From the NCBI GenBank assembly GCA_000004985.1, contig GG738928.1: a stretch of DNA of 64,000 nucleotides. The stretch is one strand, 5' to 3'. This document shows positions 24,917-29,541 of this stretch, one piece after another (the stretch's first letter is position 1; every line of letters starts with the position of its first letter). Source of the stretch: Naegleria gruberi. Its lineage: Eukaryota. The position numbers were made by a program, and so were the translations under genes. Below the pieces are notes generated by a model. It worked only from the letters and a program-made list of their open reading frames with translations, was not told the origin of the DNA and did no database searches.

Positions 24917-26371
24917 TTAATAGCCAACATAGGATGGAGTGTGAACGGTGAATTTGGCATTATGGAAATCTCTCTTCAATAAGCTATCGCTACTGATGGA
25001 GTAAATAAAGTGAGTAAGGAATTGAGTAGTGGGATAGATTGCATTGGTTGAGAAGAGAATAATATCATCCTTTTCAGATTTGAAATTATTGGTGTAGTTT
25101 CCATAATATTGTCCAAGGAAATGAGAGTCAAATGATGGAGAGAATGCTTCTAATTCATAGTAGGTGTAATCATCATACCTCTCCCTGCTGGAATTGATGA
25201 ATATTCTAGTGTCTGCTGAGATACCTAATTTCAGTGAGTGGTTATGGAGTTTGACAACCTGAGATTCACTACCATCCAGTTGAGCAAGCGGAACAGTTGA
25301 GTTATCTTTGTAATCTTGATATACAACATATCCATCAATAGCATCAATTTTTGCTTCATTTAACTCAACTCGAATGTTTTCCATTTTGACAAAAAAGTAT
25401 AAAAACCCAGATTTTGGAATTTGATAATTAATCAATGAACCAAGTTCAGAGCAGTCAAGTTGACCAACAAATACATATCCTTTTCTCCAAATAGCTGATT
25501 TGTTTGTCGTATTTGGAGAACCTCCAATCTTTGTTTTAGAGCCATCATTTGGCTTATTGGAATCAAAATAATCTGGATACAAATTGTAGGATAAGGAAAC
25601 AGCATTATTTAAAATCTCCTCAGAACTATTATCTACAGATTCTGATTTCATAAAACTTGAAATAATTGATTTCTTTGAGTTTAAATGAGGAAATAAATCA
25701 GAAAAGAATTTAGTTTTCCATCCTTTTGATTCATCGTTTCTAATTTGTGAAAGTGTAGAACTGGTTGCATAGGTGAAGAATAATGGATCTTCAATCATTG
25801 TTAAATGATAACAGTATTTCCAAATTTCATCATTTTCAACAATTAAACAATTCCAATATTTGCAGACAATTCTCATCCTCAATAGTTCATTAAAATTTCC
25901 AATAAATTTCAAAATATTTGAGTGAACATCTGGTACCAGAGCTGATAGACTAGCTCCCTCTCTAATAGAGACTTGGGATGAGTCAGTATGTTGATTGAAC
26001 CAATTGTTCACAAGTACCAATGTAATGTTCGAAAAATAACTCGAAACCCCTGGAAGTGAGTTGTTCAACTCTTGATCATTCTTAATTGCACACTCAATTG
26101 CATATTGTCCAATTGAGGAACAGTGAAAAGTAAGTGTGTAATTCAAAGAAAGCTCAAGAATTTCTCCCAACACAAACTTGATAATTCTCTTCAAACAAAC
26201 AGCAAGCACCTTCTCTTGGTTTTCAATTTGATGCTTTAAACTTCCAAAATTGAGTGTAAAATACTTTCCAATAAATCTTTCAACACTCAAACTCTCTGCA
26301 GCATCATCCACCATCACATGTTCAATCTGAAGTAAATTCTTCATTGGAAAGGCAGCCAATTGTCCTTCCAA
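24917..26371 (-). CDS. Histone H2A-like fold + F-box + DUF1963 (YwqG-like) protein; 5' end unresolved
   Basis: H2A-like region: QLAAFPMKNLL...EKVLAVCLKRIIKFVLGEILELSLNYTLTFHCSSIGQYAIECAIKNDQELNNSLPGV. Compare H2A LQFPVGR...[49 protein letters not shown]. F-box: LVPDVHSNILKFIGNFNELLRMRIVCKYWNCLI. DUF1963-like: KIGGSPNTTNKSAIWRKGYVFVGQLDCSELGSLINYQIPKSGFLYFFV. The track start is TTG. The frame is open from 26398, and the first ATG is at 26342-26344. Confidence 0.6.
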   Translation of the reverse strand: MEGQLAAFPMKNLLQIEHVMVDDAAESLSVERFIGKYFTLNFGSLKHQIENQEKVLAVCLKRIIKFVLGEILELSLNYTLTFHCSSIGQYAIECAIKNDQELNNSLPGVSSYFSNITLVLVNNWFNQHTDSSQVSIREGASLSALVPDVHSNILKFIGNFNELLRMRIVCKYWNCLIVENDEIWKYCYHLTMIEDPLFFTYATSSTLSQIRNDESKGWKTKFFSDLFPHLNSKKSIISSFMKSESVDNSSEEILNNAVSLSYNLYPDYFDSNKPNDGSKTKIGGSPNTTNKSAIWRKGYVFVGQLDCSELGSLINYQIPKSGFLYFFVKMENIRVELNEAKIDAIDGYVVYQDYKDNSTVPLAQLDGSESQVVKLHNHSLKLGISADTRIFINSSRERYDDYTYYELEAFSPSFDSHFLGQYYGNYTNNFKSEKDDIILFSTNAIYPTTQFLTHFIYSISSDSLLKRDFHNAKFTVHTPSYVGY

Positions 26372-26697
26372 ATTCTTATACTGGTTTCCGAATGCTCTTT
26401 ACTATCCATCGAATTTTCATCCACAAAACCTTTCAACAATTCCTTGATTGGACCATCAACAGCACTCTTATATTCTTCTTTCATCAAGATATAGGGTTTC
26501 AAATCATCAATTAATTTCCAGAATAAAACCAAACCAATAGAAGCCAAACTTTTATAACCACAACTAGCAATAAAAATCTTCTTTTCCAATTTTGACGCCT
26601 TTTCCTCCAATTGGTCGGCATTGAAATCGATTGGAACAGTGAGAGGGAACCCATATCTATCTAGACGGTGGGCAGTACCCTGTATTCGTTGTTCCAA
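26341..26697 (-). CDS. Open frame immediately upstream of, and overlapping, the H2A-like gene in another frame; probable 5' part of the same gene (frameshift) or a separate small gene
   Basis: 118-codon open frame with no ATG near its 5' end (the track start is TTG). Its stop (26341-26343) overlaps the downstream ATG as ATGA. The two frames are simultaneously open over 26344..26398. Confidence 0.35.
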   Translation of the reverse strand: MEQRIQGTAHRLDRYGFPLTVPIDFNADQLEEKASKLEKKIFIASCGYKSLASIGLVLFWKLIDDLKPYILMKEEYKSAVDGPIKELLKGFVDENSMDSKEHSETSIRIWKDNWLPFQ

Positions 26698-27166
26698 CCA
26701 AATTTTTTTAGAGTCGAGCCAATTTTATAAATATTTTAATATTATTTATTCTTCGGATGATATTTCGTCGCCACTTTATTCATCACTTCCACTTTGTGGA
26801 TTCTGATGCATCATCTTCCTCATATTCTGATCTGCTGGTAGTATCGTCTTGGTAAATTCTTGGAAAGCTTTTGGAGTTTATGGTTGATGGTTGGTATTTC
26901 ATCATCAACAGGATTTCCTCTTTTTGTTGCCAATTTCTTGGTTTCTTTGTTGTTGGAGATTTAGATGTAAGAAGAAGATTCCAGTCAAAGAAACTTCCTG
27001 ATGATGGGTTGTTGTATTAATTTTCTAGCCAACTGCCATGTTGTTCAGTTGCTTCCAAATACCAGCTTGTGATTGGACATTGTGGCCAGTAGACAAAATC
27101 TCTTAATTTTTTTAAATTTTAATTTAACGGTTTTTATCAACCAAATGTCAAAGCAACGGATCTTCT

Positions 27167-27340
27167 GTGGCTCGACTTTGAAATTTTTTTGTCTGACCCG
27201 GCTCGACTTGTAAAAATTTTTGTCTGACCCGGCTTGACTTGTAAATTTTTTAGCCTGACCCGGCTCGACTTCGAAATTTCGCAAGTTCTGCATAAAATGC
27301 CTCTGGCTCGACTTTGAAATTTTTACTCCCTGACCCGGCA
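27167..27340. repeat. Tandem repeat, 31-bp unit with GC-rich core (CTGACCCGGCTCGACTTGTAAAAATTTTTGT), about 5 units, degenerate at the ends
   Basis: TGACCCGG occurs at 27194, 27225, 27256 and 27331. GGCTCGACTT (or GGCTTGACTT) occurs at 27169, 27200, 27231, 27262 and 27305. The three central units have an exact 31-bp period. Confidence 0.85.
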
Positions 27341-27685
27341 TTTTACATCACTGACCACCGTCTATATCAGAGCATTATTTCTTTCCATTTTTTTGTGATT
27401 TTGTTATTGAGCGATTACAAAAACAGTAAAGCCACATGAGAGTGTCATCTAAAGGGTGTAATACACATTAAGAAATATCTACGGTAGAATGTTGTTGAAT
27501 TCTGAAACTGCATTCATTGAAAATCAATGATGTTCTTTAGGAAAGAGTATTACAATATTTATTATTTTGTTTTTTGTAATCCACTCTTCGGTATCTTCTT
27601 TCCATTTAACCATGAAGGAACTTTAAGTTCTTCAAAATTCCACAATTATTGGACGTCTTTATCCGCTCAACAATCACAAAAAAAA

Positions 27686-29541
27686 ATGGCTCAATACTAT
27701 TTACTTCGGGAGCTTGACGATTTGTCCCTAGAGGATTTGCACAAGTCTGTAAAGCCTACAAAAAAAGAGAAGACAAGCAAGGATGATAAACCAAGAAACA
27801 AAGATCAGCCAAGTAATGATGTAATACCACAAAAACTGGTGGTGTTGAACAAGTCTCACCAAATAAAACAACGCAAAGTCTATGAACGAACAAAGAAGGA
27901 GGAGACTCGTTTTATCAAACCTAAACGTAATATTGACCATTATAATGTTGCACCAACCTCACATTTTGAACAGTTGCCGACCGATTGTTTTCTTCATATT
28001 TTTGAATTTATGGAATTGACAGAAATTAAAAGGCTAGCCTACAGAATGAGTCCTTGTATTACTTTACAATTACTAGAGACGGAATCAAATCAGGGTTTTT
28101 ATAGATTATTGTGCCAAGAACAGATGAGAATGGATTTGAATTGTGCTATTGATTCCATAAATGAAAGAGGGAAAGTGAGAGGAAACTCAAGGATACGAAG
28201 ATACAATAGGCGTGTTGAAGATTCATCCAATCGAACAATATTGGGTCCGATTAAGGATTTGAGAGAGAATTTAAGAGTTTGTGTTCTGAAAGCAAAGAGT
28301 TTGTTTCCGTATTGGTTTAATGAGAATTCTGCATTGAATAAGTCAGTTTATGAAGCTGTTAAACATTCTTACTCAATTAATGAAACTCCTGTTTATCATA
28401 ATTTATCAGAACATCATCAGTCCATTTCTGATCAATATAAAGAGAAGGAAGAGAAGGAAGCAGTAGAGAAAACAAATTCATTCCTGGAAAAACTTGAGAA
28501 ACAAGTGGAAAAACAATCGAAAAGACCATCTAAATGGAAGCAAATATGGAATGGATGTTTTCTTCAAAATTTAGTGAACAGTACTATAAATGCAACAGTA
28601 GAATTTGAGAAACGAGCTCAGAAAGATTCACCACTAATTAGTGAATTAGCCAGTTACCTTAAAACAATGAGTGGCTTATTAACTTTGGAAAATACGCAAC
28701 TAAGAAGAAAGATAATGTTTGAAACTTTAACTAGAAGACGAGTACTCACACGTACTGTATTTTTTGCTAAATTAGTTGGAATTTTATACTCGTTTAGAGA
28801 TCAATATCTTCCTGAACAAATAGAACAACAATTTGAAAAATTATTAGATTTTTTCATAGAAGAATCGATTGCTCATGGTGTAGAAACTTGTCCTCTTGTT
28901 GATTGTAAGTTTGTTATTGACTTAATCTAACTTTTTCAGGTTTCATTGAAAATAATTCGCCAATTCACATGATATTAAGATCTGGACATACTCCTTTGAG
29001 TGTCAATATCATCACCAAGCATTGGAAAATTATTAAGCGCACTTCCAGAGATTTCAGATTCTATTTATTTGTAAAATGCATTTGGCAGCTGGTTGACTTT
29101 AAAGTTATACACGCCCTCTTTAAGTTTGGTATTGTTGATTCCTCTATTTTGACACATAACTTTACTAATAGAGGATCTAGATCAGTAGATATTTATTTCA
29201 TGACAACCATCGATAAATGGAATATGAATGATAATCACATTACATACTTTGGAAACATCTTCAACTTGATGGTTACCACTTTGGATGAAAGAGGGACAGA
29301 ACATTACAAAAAGCGTGAAATTAGAAGCCATAGTAGTTTATTTTCATCATCTAATCCAAGTGTTATGCTATTCTTACATAGGATATCACAATACCGTCCA
29401 AGCACTAAAGGAAACGTTGCCGACTTTTTTGCAGAGGCAATTCAAAAGTTGAAGGACAAAGTGATAACCTCATCTTTGGCAGATGATAGACCAACTTTTG
29501 AATATGTGAATTTTGGAAAAAACAAATTTGCCACGCTGTAA
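27686..29541 (+). CDS. F-box-like protein of unknown function; exons 27686..28904 and 28940..29541, intron 28905..28939 (35 nt)
   Basis: F-box-like FEQLPTDCFLHIFEFMELTEIKRLAYRMSP. The intron is GTAAGTTTGTTATTGACTTAATCTAACTTTTTCAG, with a CTAAC branch-like motif. The phase-1 junction is in frame (...CPLVD-C-FIENNSPIHMILRSGH...). The likely ATG is at 27686 (AAAAAAAATGG context, MAQYYLLRELDD). The open frame extends to an ATG at 27527 encoding an implausible F/Y-rich leader. Confidence 0.6.

What the first reader, a model, noticed from the sequence alone, without database searches (positions are those of the whole stretch)
24917..26697. Histone H2A-like fold joined to an F-box and a DUF1963 domain, with an unresolved frame break at the 5' end
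Residues near the N-terminus align to the H2A alpha1-alpha3 region. Matching segments are FP..., EILEL, and AI[KR]ND[QE]ELN..L.GV, with a ~25-aa insertion in loop 1. This is followed by a clear F-box and a YwqG/DUF1963-like domain. A histone-fold module on an SCF substrate adaptor is unusual.

The upstream 118-codon open frame (26341..26697) ends in ATGA, overlapping the first ATG of this ORF. Both frames are open over 26344..26398, and the upstream frame has no ATG of its own. A single-base indel there would fuse them. The only GT..AG pair that could bridge them is 22 nt long, which I consider too short. The true 5' structure is therefore unknown.
Basis: partly seen in the sequence, partly recalled or inferred. 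Interest (0 to 1): 0.6.

Follow-up and report, generated by a model that had tools for sequence, protein, structure and literature searches.

The report
Histone-pair F-box protein, broken 5' end
This Naegleria gruberi gene belongs to a family not described in the papers I could search, in which a fused, acidic copy of the histone pair H2B-H2A sits on a ubiquitin-ligase adaptor (F-box plus DUF1963 domain); in this copy the H2B-like half is disrupted by small deletions.

Summary
The main observation holds and can be extended. The window is Naegleria gruberi. The 475-codon ORF (26344..24917, minus strand) is the annotated gene NAEGRDRAFT_82183, labelled only as an F-box protein.

**Corrected architecture.** The protein is H2B-like + H2A-like + F-box + DUF1963/TYPP. 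Pfam detects no histone domain in any of 17 members. The pair is acidic (pI about 5) and lacks the basic DNA-binding residues, so it is probably not nucleosomal.

**Distribution.** Named members are all from Naegleria and Willaertia.

**Frame break.** The upstream frame is the H2B-like half of the same ancestral gene. Compared with paralogue NAEGRDRAFT_71080, this copy has two 1-nt gaps (about 26626 and 26378) and a 24-nt gap. The 5' half is therefore probably decayed, although sequencing error is not excluded.

The "FP" match belongs to H2B alphaC, not H2A. There is no 25-residue loop insertion.

**Function.** An SCF adaptor role is inferred, not shown.

The parts
24917..26344 (-). Annotated CDS NAEGRDRAFT_82183 / XP_002669368.1 (475 aa plus stop). 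It starts at a Met inside the H2B-alphaC-like helix.
   Evidence: ORF list. The exact sequence is present in NCBI and UniProt as an N. gruberi 'F-box domain-containing protein'.
25985..26296 (-). H2A-like histone fold (alpha1 'SVERFIGKYF', alpha2, alpha3, alphaC and a docking-like tail); residues about 17-120 of the annotated protein.
   Evidence: PDB sequence searches give E 0.057, then 2.6e-4, then (family profile) H2A alone about 1e-11. In the AF2 model this region has pLDDT 87-91. Fold matches.
25814..25948 (-). F-box (residues 133-177; '..VPDVHSNILKFIGNFNELLRMRIVCKYWNCLIVENDEIWK').
   Evidence: Pfam F-box-like E 5.9e-5 in the window copy, 23.2 bits against a 24.3 cut-off. The paralogue passes the cut-offs of both F-box models. 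It is the most conserved block of the family alignment.
24956..25531 (-). DUF1963 / TYPP domain (residues about 272-463), with 'IGGSP' (GGxP motif) and 'FVGQLD' (conserved Q).
   Evidence: Pfam PF09234 at 28.8 bits, above the cut-off of 23. The paralogue covers profile positions 2-210 of 216. The two motifs are those described for the superfamily in PMC4275035.
26315..26377 (-). H2B alphaC-like segment 'KNLEGQLAAFPMKNLLQIEHV', in the same frame as the annotated CDS. Its first 11 codons lie upstream of the annotated ATG.
   Evidence: tblastn of the paralogue places the frame -1 HSP start at 26377. The segment aligns to '[13 protein letters not shown]' of H2B through the family profile.
26378..26385 (-). 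Frame break 2. A 1-nt gap relative to the paralogue ('CCAGTA-TAAGAAT' vs 'TCTGTAGAAAGAAT'), 12 nt downstream of an in-frame 24-nt gap that removes the paralogue residues CQDIHDLI at the start of the H2B-type alpha3 signature.
   Evidence: DNA alignment of the window against L001. The tblastn HSPs change frame between 26386 and 26377.
26380..26625 (-). N-terminal histone fold of the pair, in the H2B position: 'FNADQLEEK...GYKSLASIGLVLFWKLIDDLKPYILMKEE...KELLKGFVDENSMDSKEHSETS'.
26626..26654 (-). Relic N-terminus in a third frame: ATG at 26654, 'MGSLSLFQS' against paralogue 'FCSLTFFQS'. Frame break 1 (a 1-nt gap) lies at 26627-26625, and a TAG lies two codons upstream of the ATG.
   Evidence: DNA alignment A4: 'CAATCGAT-TTCAATGCC' vs 'CAATCCATATTCAATGCC', with about 69% identity over the preceding 36 nt. 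Three-frame translation.

Best explanation
**What it is (shown).** The locus is one paralogue of a multigene family found in the heterolobosean amoebae Naegleria and Willaertia, plus unnamed environmental sequences. Family members have four parts in order:
- an N-terminal histone fold in the H2B position, carrying the H2B alpha3-alphaC signature LPGELAKHA in less diverged members;
- an H2A-like histone fold, so the two form a single-chain H2B-H2A-type pair;
- an F-box;
- a C-terminal DUF1963/TYPP beta-rich domain.

**What the pair is like (shown).** It is acidic. It has no basic tails and has lost the basic loop-2 DNA contacts. It keeps the residues equivalent to the H2A acidic patch.

**How it probably works (inferred).** The F-box docks the protein on Skp1-Cul1 as an SCF ubiquitin-ligase substrate receptor. 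The TYPP domain, a protein-binding and chaperone-like module in Tsr4/PDCD2, would act as one protein-interaction surface. The histone-pair mimic would act as a second one. It could present an acidic-patch-like surface to basic or arginine-anchor partners rather than wrapping DNA.

**This copy (shown from the assembly).** The N-terminal half is broken relative to paralogue NAEGRDRAFT_71080. There is a 1-nt gap at about 26626, a 24-nt gap plus a 1-nt gap at about 26378, and no start codon in the homologous position.

**Most likely reading of the break (inferred).** These are real lesions. The only long ORF is then the annotated 475-aa product. It starts at Met 26344 and keeps the H2A-like half, the F-box and the TYPP domain, but lacks its intramolecular partner fold. 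Whether that truncated product is still functional is unknown.
For: **Identity of the locus**
- Three window ORFs are exact N. gruberi proteins.

**One ancestral gene**
- Paralogue P0001 (559 aa, 54% identity) spans both frames without a break.
- tblastn gives HSPs in two frames.
- The DNA alignment to the paralogue's contig L001 shows the 1-nt, 24-nt and 1-nt gaps and the third-frame N-terminus.

**Histone pair**
- PDB profile searches give E 2.6e-4 with two sequences.
- With 16 sequences, E is 8.5e-15 to single-chain H2B-H2A(.Z) chimeras, collinear from H2B alpha3 to H2A alphaC.
- AF2 of the repaired N-terminus gives pTM 0.70.
- Foldseek top hits are single-chain H2B-H2A chimeras, with TM normalised to target about 0.6.
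- Giant-virus doublets head the viral library hits.

**Not a nucleosomal histone**
- The pair region has pI below 6.4 in 18 of 21 members, against above 10 for canonical H2B+H2A.
- Positions equivalent to K74/K75/R77 are not conserved, whereas E61, E64, D90 and E92 equivalents are kept in 11-16 of 17 members.

**Other domains**
- F-box and DUF1963 hits.
- The GGxP and Q motifs match the description in PMC4275035.

**Family size and range**
- 22 proteins reach E<=1e-3 among 1.84 billion representatives. P0025 and P0026 are plain histone hits and P0006 is an alternative model of the paralogue.
- Named members are N. gruberi (6), N. lovaniensis (3) and Willaertia magna (6).
Against: **Function**
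- No functional data of any kind are available. Skp1 binding, substrates and localisation are all inferred.
- The window copy's F-box scores just below the Pfam cut-off.

**Structure**
It has low confidence at residues 73-92, where break 2 lies.
- The N-terminal fold alone gave no PDB sequence hit.
- Its alpha2/alpha3 boundaries are ambiguous, because most members carry a long insertion before the H2B-type alpha3-alphaC motif.

**Reality of the frame shifts**
- This rests on a single assembly; no independent contig of this locus was found.
- The 82-codon middle segment has no stop codon and is as similar to the paralogue as the rest of the gene. That fits either a very recent decay or sequencing errors.
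Confidence: 0.7

Rival explanations
1. The two 1-nt gaps are errors of the N. gruberi draft assembly. The real gene then encodes an intact protein of about 570-600 aa with the full H2B-like/H2A-like pair, like its paralogue.
For: Between the two breaks, 82 codons stay open and are about as similar to the paralogue as the downstream part (46.7% including gaps, about 54% over aligned positions, against 55.6% downstream). Each break is repaired by a single base. An ATG sits at 26654 in the homologous frame.
Against: Two single-base errors within 250 nt are unlikely in an assembly I recall as about 8-fold Sanger coverage; this was not checked here. Other differences sit in the same region. A 24-nt gap removes the start of the H2B-type alpha3 signature. 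The paralogue's start codon has no counterpart. A TAG lies two codons upstream of the 26654 ATG. The public annotation also starts at 26344.
Confidence: 0.22
2. The whole locus is a recently dead pseudogene and no functional protein is made, not even the 475-aa product.
For: The 5' lesions remove the intramolecular partner of the H2A-like fold, and histone folds are normally unstable without a partner (established knowledge). A metagenome contig of the sister paralogue 71080 also carries a frame-shifting internal deletion. This suggests the subfamily is decaying.
Against: A 475-codon ORF is intact in a genome of 33% G+C. It is 55.6% identical to the paralogue along its whole length, with all the F-box and TYPP motifs kept.
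Confidence: 0.2
3. The frame breaks are bypassed at the RNA or translation level, by short cryptic introns or by -1 ribosomal frameshifting, so a full-length protein is still produced.
For: Several in-phase GT..AG pairs exist. One is 44 nt (26424..26381) and one is 38 nt (26402..26365). A 74-nt pair (26637..26564) would join the 26654 ATG to the middle segment.
Against: GT and AG dinucleotides are frequent enough here that such pairs are expected by chance. Every candidate deletes residues conserved with the paralogue, where the same stretch is continuous coding sequence. Neither break has an X XXY YYZ slippery heptamer (read directly from the sequence).
Confidence: 0.06
4. The domain is a genuine chromatin histone variant: a nucleosomal H2B-H2A doublet, as in Marseilleviridae, that tethers an E3 ligase into nucleosomes.
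For: The order H2B then H2A and the fold are the same as in viral doublets that form nucleosomes. Many members carry a KKRK-type motif in the linker, which could be a nuclear localisation signal.
Against: The pair region has a net negative charge and pI around 5 in most members. It has no basic tails, and the loop-2 DNA-contact residues are not conserved. The window copy and its paralogue lack the KKRK linker.
Confidence: 0.05

Closest known systems
Canonical H2A-H2B dimer and engineered single-chain H2B-H2A chimeras (e.g. PDB 6W4L, 4M6B, 6K0C)
   Different: It is a natural fusion, not an engineered one. It is acidic rather than basic, with no N-terminal tails and with the loop-2 DNA contacts lost. 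Most members have a long insertion in the H2B-like half. It is followed by an F-box and a TYPP domain. Pfam histone models do not detect it.
Giant-virus histone doublets (Marseilleviridae H-beta/H-alpha = H2B-H2A; PDB 7LV8, 7N8N)
   Different: The viral doublets are basic, wrap DNA and are virion chromatin proteins. This family sits in the cellular genome between housekeeping-type genes (tyrosyl-tRNA synthetase and a glutamine amidotransferase-like gene). It is acidic and is fused to ubiquitin-ligase adaptor domains. In the family profile search, eukaryotic H2A/H2B chimeras fill the top of the list and no viral doublet appears among the 60 best hits.
Histone domain of Son of Sevenless (SOS; PDB 1Q9C)
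   Different: SOS gave no significant sequence match here, and it is a Ras exchange factor. This family retains clear H2A and H2B sequence signatures and is attached to an F-box.
F-box proteins (SCF substrate receptors)
   Same: A conserved F-box motif, followed by a C-terminal putative substrate-binding domain as in most F-box proteins.
   Different: The F-box is internal, preceded by a module of about 230-330 residues. A histone pair as the N-terminal module and a TYPP domain as the C-terminal module were not found described together in the papers searched.
TYPP superfamily (Tsr4, YwqG/DUF1963, PDCD2, PDCD2L; Burroughs & Aravind 2014, PMC4275035)
   Same: The Pfam DUF1963 match is above the cut-off, and the GGxP motif and conserved Q are present.
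   Different: According to that paper, DUF1963 proteins are predominantly bacterial and the eukaryotic relatives act in ribosome biogenesis. Here the domain is the C-terminal module of an F-box protein.

Membership tests
Histone H2A family | Sequence signature of alpha2-L2-alpha3-alphaC (..[32 protein letters not shown]..) recognised by sequence or profile comparison | tested here: met
   Window alone E 0.057 with a gapless 54-residue alignment. Two-sequence profile E 2.6e-4. In the family profile search, H2A chains alone reach about 1e-11. The generic Pfam Histone model does not hit.
Histone H2A family | Histone fold (helix-strand-helix, three helices) paired in a handshake with a partner fold | tested here: met
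Histone H2A family | Basic character: N-terminal tail and loop-1/loop-2 arginines and lysines that contact DNA | tested here: not met
   Window has H, C, S at the K74, K75, R77 positions and Y at R81. These positions are not conserved in the family. The pair region has pI below 6.4 in 18 of 21 members, against above 10 for canonical histones. There is no tail.
Histone H2A family | Incorporation into nucleosomes | not testable with these tools
   Needs reconstitution or chromatin fractionation.
Histone H2B family | alpha3-alphaC signature (..[30 protein letters not shown]) | tested here: met
   Met at family level: P0009 has 'YTLNNYFQTLCKKYLPGEVAKHAHNEAVKFVKK', and the profile alignment to H2B-H2A chimeras starts in H2B alpha3. 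In the window copy it is degenerate ('KNLEGQLAAFPMKNLL') and its alpha3 part is deleted.
Histone H2B family | alpha1-L1-alpha2 recognisable by sequence | tested here: inconclusive
   The two-sequence profile of the upstream part gave no PDB hit at E<=10. The family profile gives only a collinear, non-significant 3.3-bit match to H2B alpha1-alpha2. Support comes from the structure model only.
Viral-type histone doublets | Two histone folds, H2B-type then H2A-type, in one polypeptide | tested here: met
   In this window copy the polypeptide is interrupted by frame shifts.
Viral-type histone doublets | Encoded by a giant-virus genome or a viral insertion | tested here: not met
   The flanking genes are cellular-type: tyrosyl-tRNA synthetase (N. 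gruberi NAEGRDRAFT_75743) and a glutamine amidotransferase-like gene. G+C is even at about 0.26-0.40 across 20-32 kb. Paralogues lie on several scaffolds and in three species.
F-box proteins | F-box motif of about 45 residues recognised by the Pfam F-box or F-box-like profiles | tested here: met
   Window: F-box-like E 5.9e-5 at 23.2 bits, just under the 24.3 cut-off. Paralogue: 24.9 and 21.4 bits, above both cut-offs. The motif L-P-x-E-[LV]-H..IL...........LL.MR.VCK.WN is the most conserved block of the family.
F-box proteins | Binding to Skp1 and assembly into an SCF ligase | not testable with these tools
DUF1963 / TYPP superfamily | Pfam PF09234 match above the gathering score | tested here: met
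   28.8 bits against 23 for the window copy (profile positions 2-104). 31.8 bits for the paralogue, covering profile positions 2-210 of 216.
DUF1963 / TYPP superfamily | GGxP motif and the highly conserved Q described for the superfamily (PMC4275035) | tested here: met
   'KIGGSPN' and 'FVGQLDC' in the window protein; 'KIGGNPN' and 'FIGQIDF' in the paralogue.

The most novel reading that the evidence does not exclude
The family would be a set of ubiquitin-ligase adaptors that display a soluble mimic of the nucleosome's H2A-H2B surface as bait. The mimic has lost its DNA contacts but keeps the acidic patch. It would capture proteins that normally dock on that surface, or on free H2A-H2B, and hand them to SCF for ubiquitylation. 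Such proteins include arginine-anchor chromatin factors, histone chaperones and giant-virus histone-handling proteins. Three features resemble the evolution of immune-type F-box families: strong divergence between paralogues, expansion within one lineage, and copies caught in decay (this locus and the 71080 allele in L001). A role in conflict with the giant viruses that infect these amoebae is therefore not excluded.
Probability: 0.12. Interest if true: 0.85.

Novelty: new variant of a known kind. Interest (0 to 1): 0.62.

Why it matters
Natural single-chain H2B-H2A doublets are discussed almost only for giant viruses, where they feed the debate on the origin of nucleosomes. Here a cellular eukaryote carries a whole family of such fusions. 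They are re-purposed: acidic, tail-less, and attached to ubiquitin-ligase adaptor domains. They are invisible to Pfam, so public records call them only "F-box domain-containing" or hypothetical proteins.

This has three consequences:
- It gives a second natural example, after SOS, of a histone pair used as a protein module outside chromatin.
- It suggests a testable way to link histone-surface recognition to ubiquitylation.
- It warns that surveys of histone diversity based on Pfam-type models miss such proteins.

For this particular locus, the practical result is a corrected gene history. The "upstream ORF" is the decayed front half of the same gene.

Tried and rejected
- **AF2 on the full-length two-sequence alignment** failed (mean pLDDT 31).
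- **Pfam histone models** found nothing in the window protein, the paralogue or any of 17 family N-termini.
- **PDB sequence search with the upstream part alone** (two sequences) found nothing at E<=10.
- **Word-indexed protein searches** were poor. The first missed the window's own annotated protein, because its cluster representative is an unrelated 50-aa fragment, P0005. The second, with a 12-sequence alignment, returned only 3 proteins.
- **Exact look-ups for an independent contig of this locus** found nothing for the 475-aa, 484-aa or 118-aa products. The paralogue P0001 itself had no contig on record. Its 5' half was reached only through P0006 and L001.
- **The afdb50 fold library** was not available.
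- **5' exon search.** I considered a 5' exon with an ATG spliced onto the upstream frame. There were 50 GT..AG combinations, including 'MNK|GTAHRL..' and 'MMKYQPST...KWK|YGFPL..'. I rejected these as unsupported, because the DNA alignment shows that the homologous frame upstream of 26625 is a different one.
- **Single 25-nt deletion.** I considered this as the cause of break 2. The alignment instead shows 24 nt plus 1 nt, separated by 12 aligned bases.
- **Programmed -1 frameshifting.** Neither site has a slippery heptamer.
- **dN/dS between the paralogues** was not attempted, because at 54% protein identity the synonymous sites are saturated.
Full report
**What is at the coordinates**

On the minus strand an ORF runs from ATG 26344 to the stop at 24917, giving 475 aa. 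A second open frame, 26697..26341, ends in TGA overlapping that ATG as ATGA. Both frames are open over 26344..26398.

Exact-sequence look-up shows the window is Naegleria gruberi:
- The flanking tyrosyl-tRNA synthetase ORF is NAEGRDRAFT_75743.
- The glutamine-amidotransferase-like ORF is NAEGRDRAFT_75744.
- The 475-aa ORF is the annotated NAEGRDRAFT_82183 (XP_002669368.1, UniProt D2W2X4), named only "F-box domain-containing protein".

Pfam finds DUF1963 (E 1.9e-6, above its cut-off) and F-box-like (E 5.9e-5, 1 bit below its cut-off). It finds no histone model.

**Is the H2A resemblance real?**

Yes. The evidence builds up in four steps.

1. phmmer of the 475-aa protein against all PDB sequences lists H2A chains as every one of the 60 hits shown. 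The alignment is gapless over 54 residues (protein 49-102 to H2A 49-102), but E is only 0.057.
2. Adding the one close relative (P0001, see below) as a two-sequence profile lowers E to 2.6e-4. The alignment then extends into the H2A C-terminal docking segment.
3. An exhaustive HMMER search of 1.84 billion representative proteins found 22 proteins at E<=1e-3. A 16-sequence profile of their N-terminal regions then hits PDB at E 8.5e-15.
   - The best hits are not H2A alone (about 1e-11). They are engineered single-chain H2B-H2A or H2B-H2A.Z chimeras.
   - The alignment is collinear, from H2B alpha3/alphaC ([10 protein letters not shown]) through H2A alpha1, alpha2 and alpha3 to alphaC.
   - Less diverged members make this visible by eye. 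P0009 reads 'YTLNNYFQTLCKKYLPGEVAKHAHNEAVKFVKK' and later 'VFVGLTAITDYLIAEVVELAGNASRDN...MAITFDDELKLL'.
4. An AlphaFold2 model of the window's repaired N-terminal 228 residues, built with a 17-sequence alignment, reached pTM 0.70. pLDDT is 87-91 in the H2A-like core and about 82 in alpha2 of the first fold. Its structural matches are:
   - Foldseek against PDB: top hits are single-chain H2B-H2A chimeras (probability 1.0, about 210 aligned columns), followed by the Melbournevirus doublet and the SOS histone domain.
   - Viral structure library: giant-virus H2B-H2A doublets come first.

The N-terminal module is therefore a single-chain histone-fold pair of H2B-H2A type, not a lone H2A fold.

- In the family and profile alignments, H2A alpha1 ('QFPVGRIHRFL') corresponds to the family segment 'lsfdveklekfilkyF', which is 'LSVERFIGKYF' in the window.
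- 'GQLAAFPMKNLL' corresponds to H2B alphaC '[12 protein letters not shown]'.
- The 'FP' match to H2A and the 25-residue loop-1 insertion are therefore artefacts of aligning by eye.
- The EILEL and AIKNDQELN matches are correct.

**Not a nucleosomal histone**

- The pair region has pI below 6.4 in 18 of 21 members. It is 5.3 in the window copy.
- There are no basic tails.
- The loop-2 DNA contacts K74/K75/R77 are H/C/S in the window and are not conserved in the family.
- The positions equivalent to the H2A acidic patch are among the best conserved columns: E61 in 13/17, E64 in 11/17, D90 in 15/17, E92 in 16/17 and E56 in 11/17.
- Pfam sees no histone domain in any of 17 members. This explains why public records do not mention one.

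**The rest of the protein**

- The F-box block (L-P-x-E-L-H..IL....LL.MRLVCK.WN..I....IWK) is the most conserved part of the family. It passes the Pfam cut-offs in the paralogue.
- The C-terminal domain matches DUF1963.
- It also carries the GGxP motif ('IGGSP') and the conserved Q ('VGQLD'). These define the TYPP superfamily of Tsr4, YwqG, PDCD2 and PDCD2L, for which a chaperone-like protein-binding role was proposed (PMC4275035).

**Family range**

- N. gruberi: 82183, 71080, 69753, 69196, 71992 and 51545.
- N. lovaniensis: three members.
- Willaertia magna: six members.
- Several unnamed environmental sequences.
- All named members are heterolobosean amoebae.

**The frame break**

P0001 (NAEGRDRAFT_71080, 559 aa) is a paralogue in the same genome, 54% identical. 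It runs without interruption across the point where the window switches frame. tblastn of the paralogue against the window gives two HSPs:
- frame -2: 26625..26386, 46.7% identity;
- frame -1: 26377..24935, 55.6% identity.

A metagenome contig, L001, carries the 5' half of 71080 with its ATG. Aligning its DNA to the window shows three things:

1. Near the break the window has an in-frame 24-nt gap. It removes paralogue residues 'CQDIHDLI', the start of the H2B-type alpha3 signature. Twelve bases further on there is a 1-nt gap ('CCAGTA-TAAGAAT' vs 'TCTGTAGAAAGAAT').
2. There is a second 1-nt gap at 26627-26625 ('CAATCGAT-TTCAATGCC' vs 'CAATCCATATTCAATGCC'). Upstream of it the homologous reading frame is a third frame. 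There the window reads 'IDMGSLSLFQS' against 'IDFCSLTFFQS', with an ATG at 26654 and a TAG two codons before it.
3. The paralogue's own start codon has no counterpart in the window.

Its first 24 codons are open by chance.

No intron can account for break 2 while keeping the residues conserved on both sides ('DENSMDSKEH' and 'KNLEGQLAAFPM'). In-phase GT..AG pairs of 35-89 nt do exist, but they delete conserved residues and are expected by chance. Neither site has a slippery heptamer.

**Interpretation of the break**

I consider real small deletions the most likely cause. The N-terminal fold of this copy would then have decayed, and the annotated 475-aa product would be all that can be made. 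My reasons are the several lesions clustered in 300 nt and the public annotation, which already starts at 26344. I also recall the assembly as Sanger-based, which I did not check here.

Sequencing error is not excluded. The 82 codons between the breaks carry no stop and are no more diverged than the rest. I could not find an independent contig of this locus.

The truncated product keeps the H2A-like fold, the F-box and the TYPP domain, but lacks the partner fold. Whether it is functional, pairs with something else, or is a dead gene is unknown. A contig of the sister paralogue also carries a frame-shifting internal deletion. This hints that the subfamily is decaying.

**How it probably works**

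This section is inference. By analogy with other F-box proteins, family members would bind Skp1 through the F-box and act as substrate receptors of an SCF ubiquitin ligase. The TYPP domain would be one protein-binding surface. The acidic histone pair would be a second, or a regulatory module as in SOS. Loss of the DNA contacts together with conservation of acidic-patch positions suggests that the pair mimics the H2A-H2B surface for protein binding rather than binding DNA. None of this has been tested.

**Novelty**

Full-text searches found no description of this architecture. I combined Naegleria or Heterolobosea with histone doublet, histone fold, F-box or H2B-H2A, and I searched for DUF1963. 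The reviews and surveys of viral and eukaryotic histones that I opened do not mention it.

The gene itself is annotated, and all its parts belong to known superfamilies. I therefore rate it a new variant of known kinds: a cellular histone doublet and an F-box protein with unusual partner domains. I could not check whether structure-based resources such as InterPro superfamily assignments already flag a histone fold in these proteins.

Noticed in passing
window 27169-27279: A 31-nt tandem repeat, 3.6 copies at 85% match, lies in the intergenic region upstream of the gene. It explains the repetitive peptide of the 98-aa ORF 27045-27341 (minus strand), which has no Pfam hit and is probably not a gene.
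   Followed up: partly
window 27527-28930 (+): The divergently oriented 467-aa ORF has an F-box-like start ('LPTDCFLHIFEFM'; Pfam F-box E 0.08 only). It is not in the protein collection as an exact sequence, so it is probably annotated differently. It lacks the family's MRLVCK.WN block.
   Followed up: partly
L001 2187-2214 (ENA metagenome ERZ929261 contig, paralogue NAEGRDRAFT_71080): In this contig the paralogue lacks about 12 codons between two copies of 'TTGTTCAATC', which shifts the frame after '...SLPSSICSI'. It also has one F-to-I difference from the NCBI protein. This is either a decaying allele or strain variant, or an assembly artefact.
   Followed up: partly
L001 1474-1638: The public model of NAEGRDRAFT_71080 (P0001) starts at an internal Met ('MFMSCHGHK'). 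The contig ORF continues 55 codons upstream to 'MATSLTTTPEPPAAQTVIDF...', which carries the family's N-terminal 'IDF' motif. The public model is therefore probably truncated at its 5' end.
   Followed up: partly
protein P0031 (647 aa, Logan assembly, 15-kb contig): This is another natural H2B-H2A-type doublet fused to something else, here leucine-rich repeats (Pfam LRR_4 E 4e-20). The source organism is unknown.
   Followed up: no
protein P0025 (185 aa, Logan/ENA, 18.7-kb contig): A small doublet in the reverse order, H2A-like then H2B-like, which Pfam Histone detects (E 8.7e-9). The source is unknown and could be a giant virus.
   Followed up: no
family alignment A5/A7, linker between the first fold and the H2B-type alpha3-alphaC motif: Most family members carry an insertion of 60-100 residues with a KKRK/KRK motif, possibly a nuclear localisation signal. 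The window copy and paralogue 71080 lack it.
   Followed up: no
protein cluster of the window's 475-aa protein: In the 90% clustering of the protein collection, the window protein is filed under an unrelated 50-aa metagenome fragment (P0005) as representative. This is why the first homology search did not return the protein itself.
   Followed up: yes
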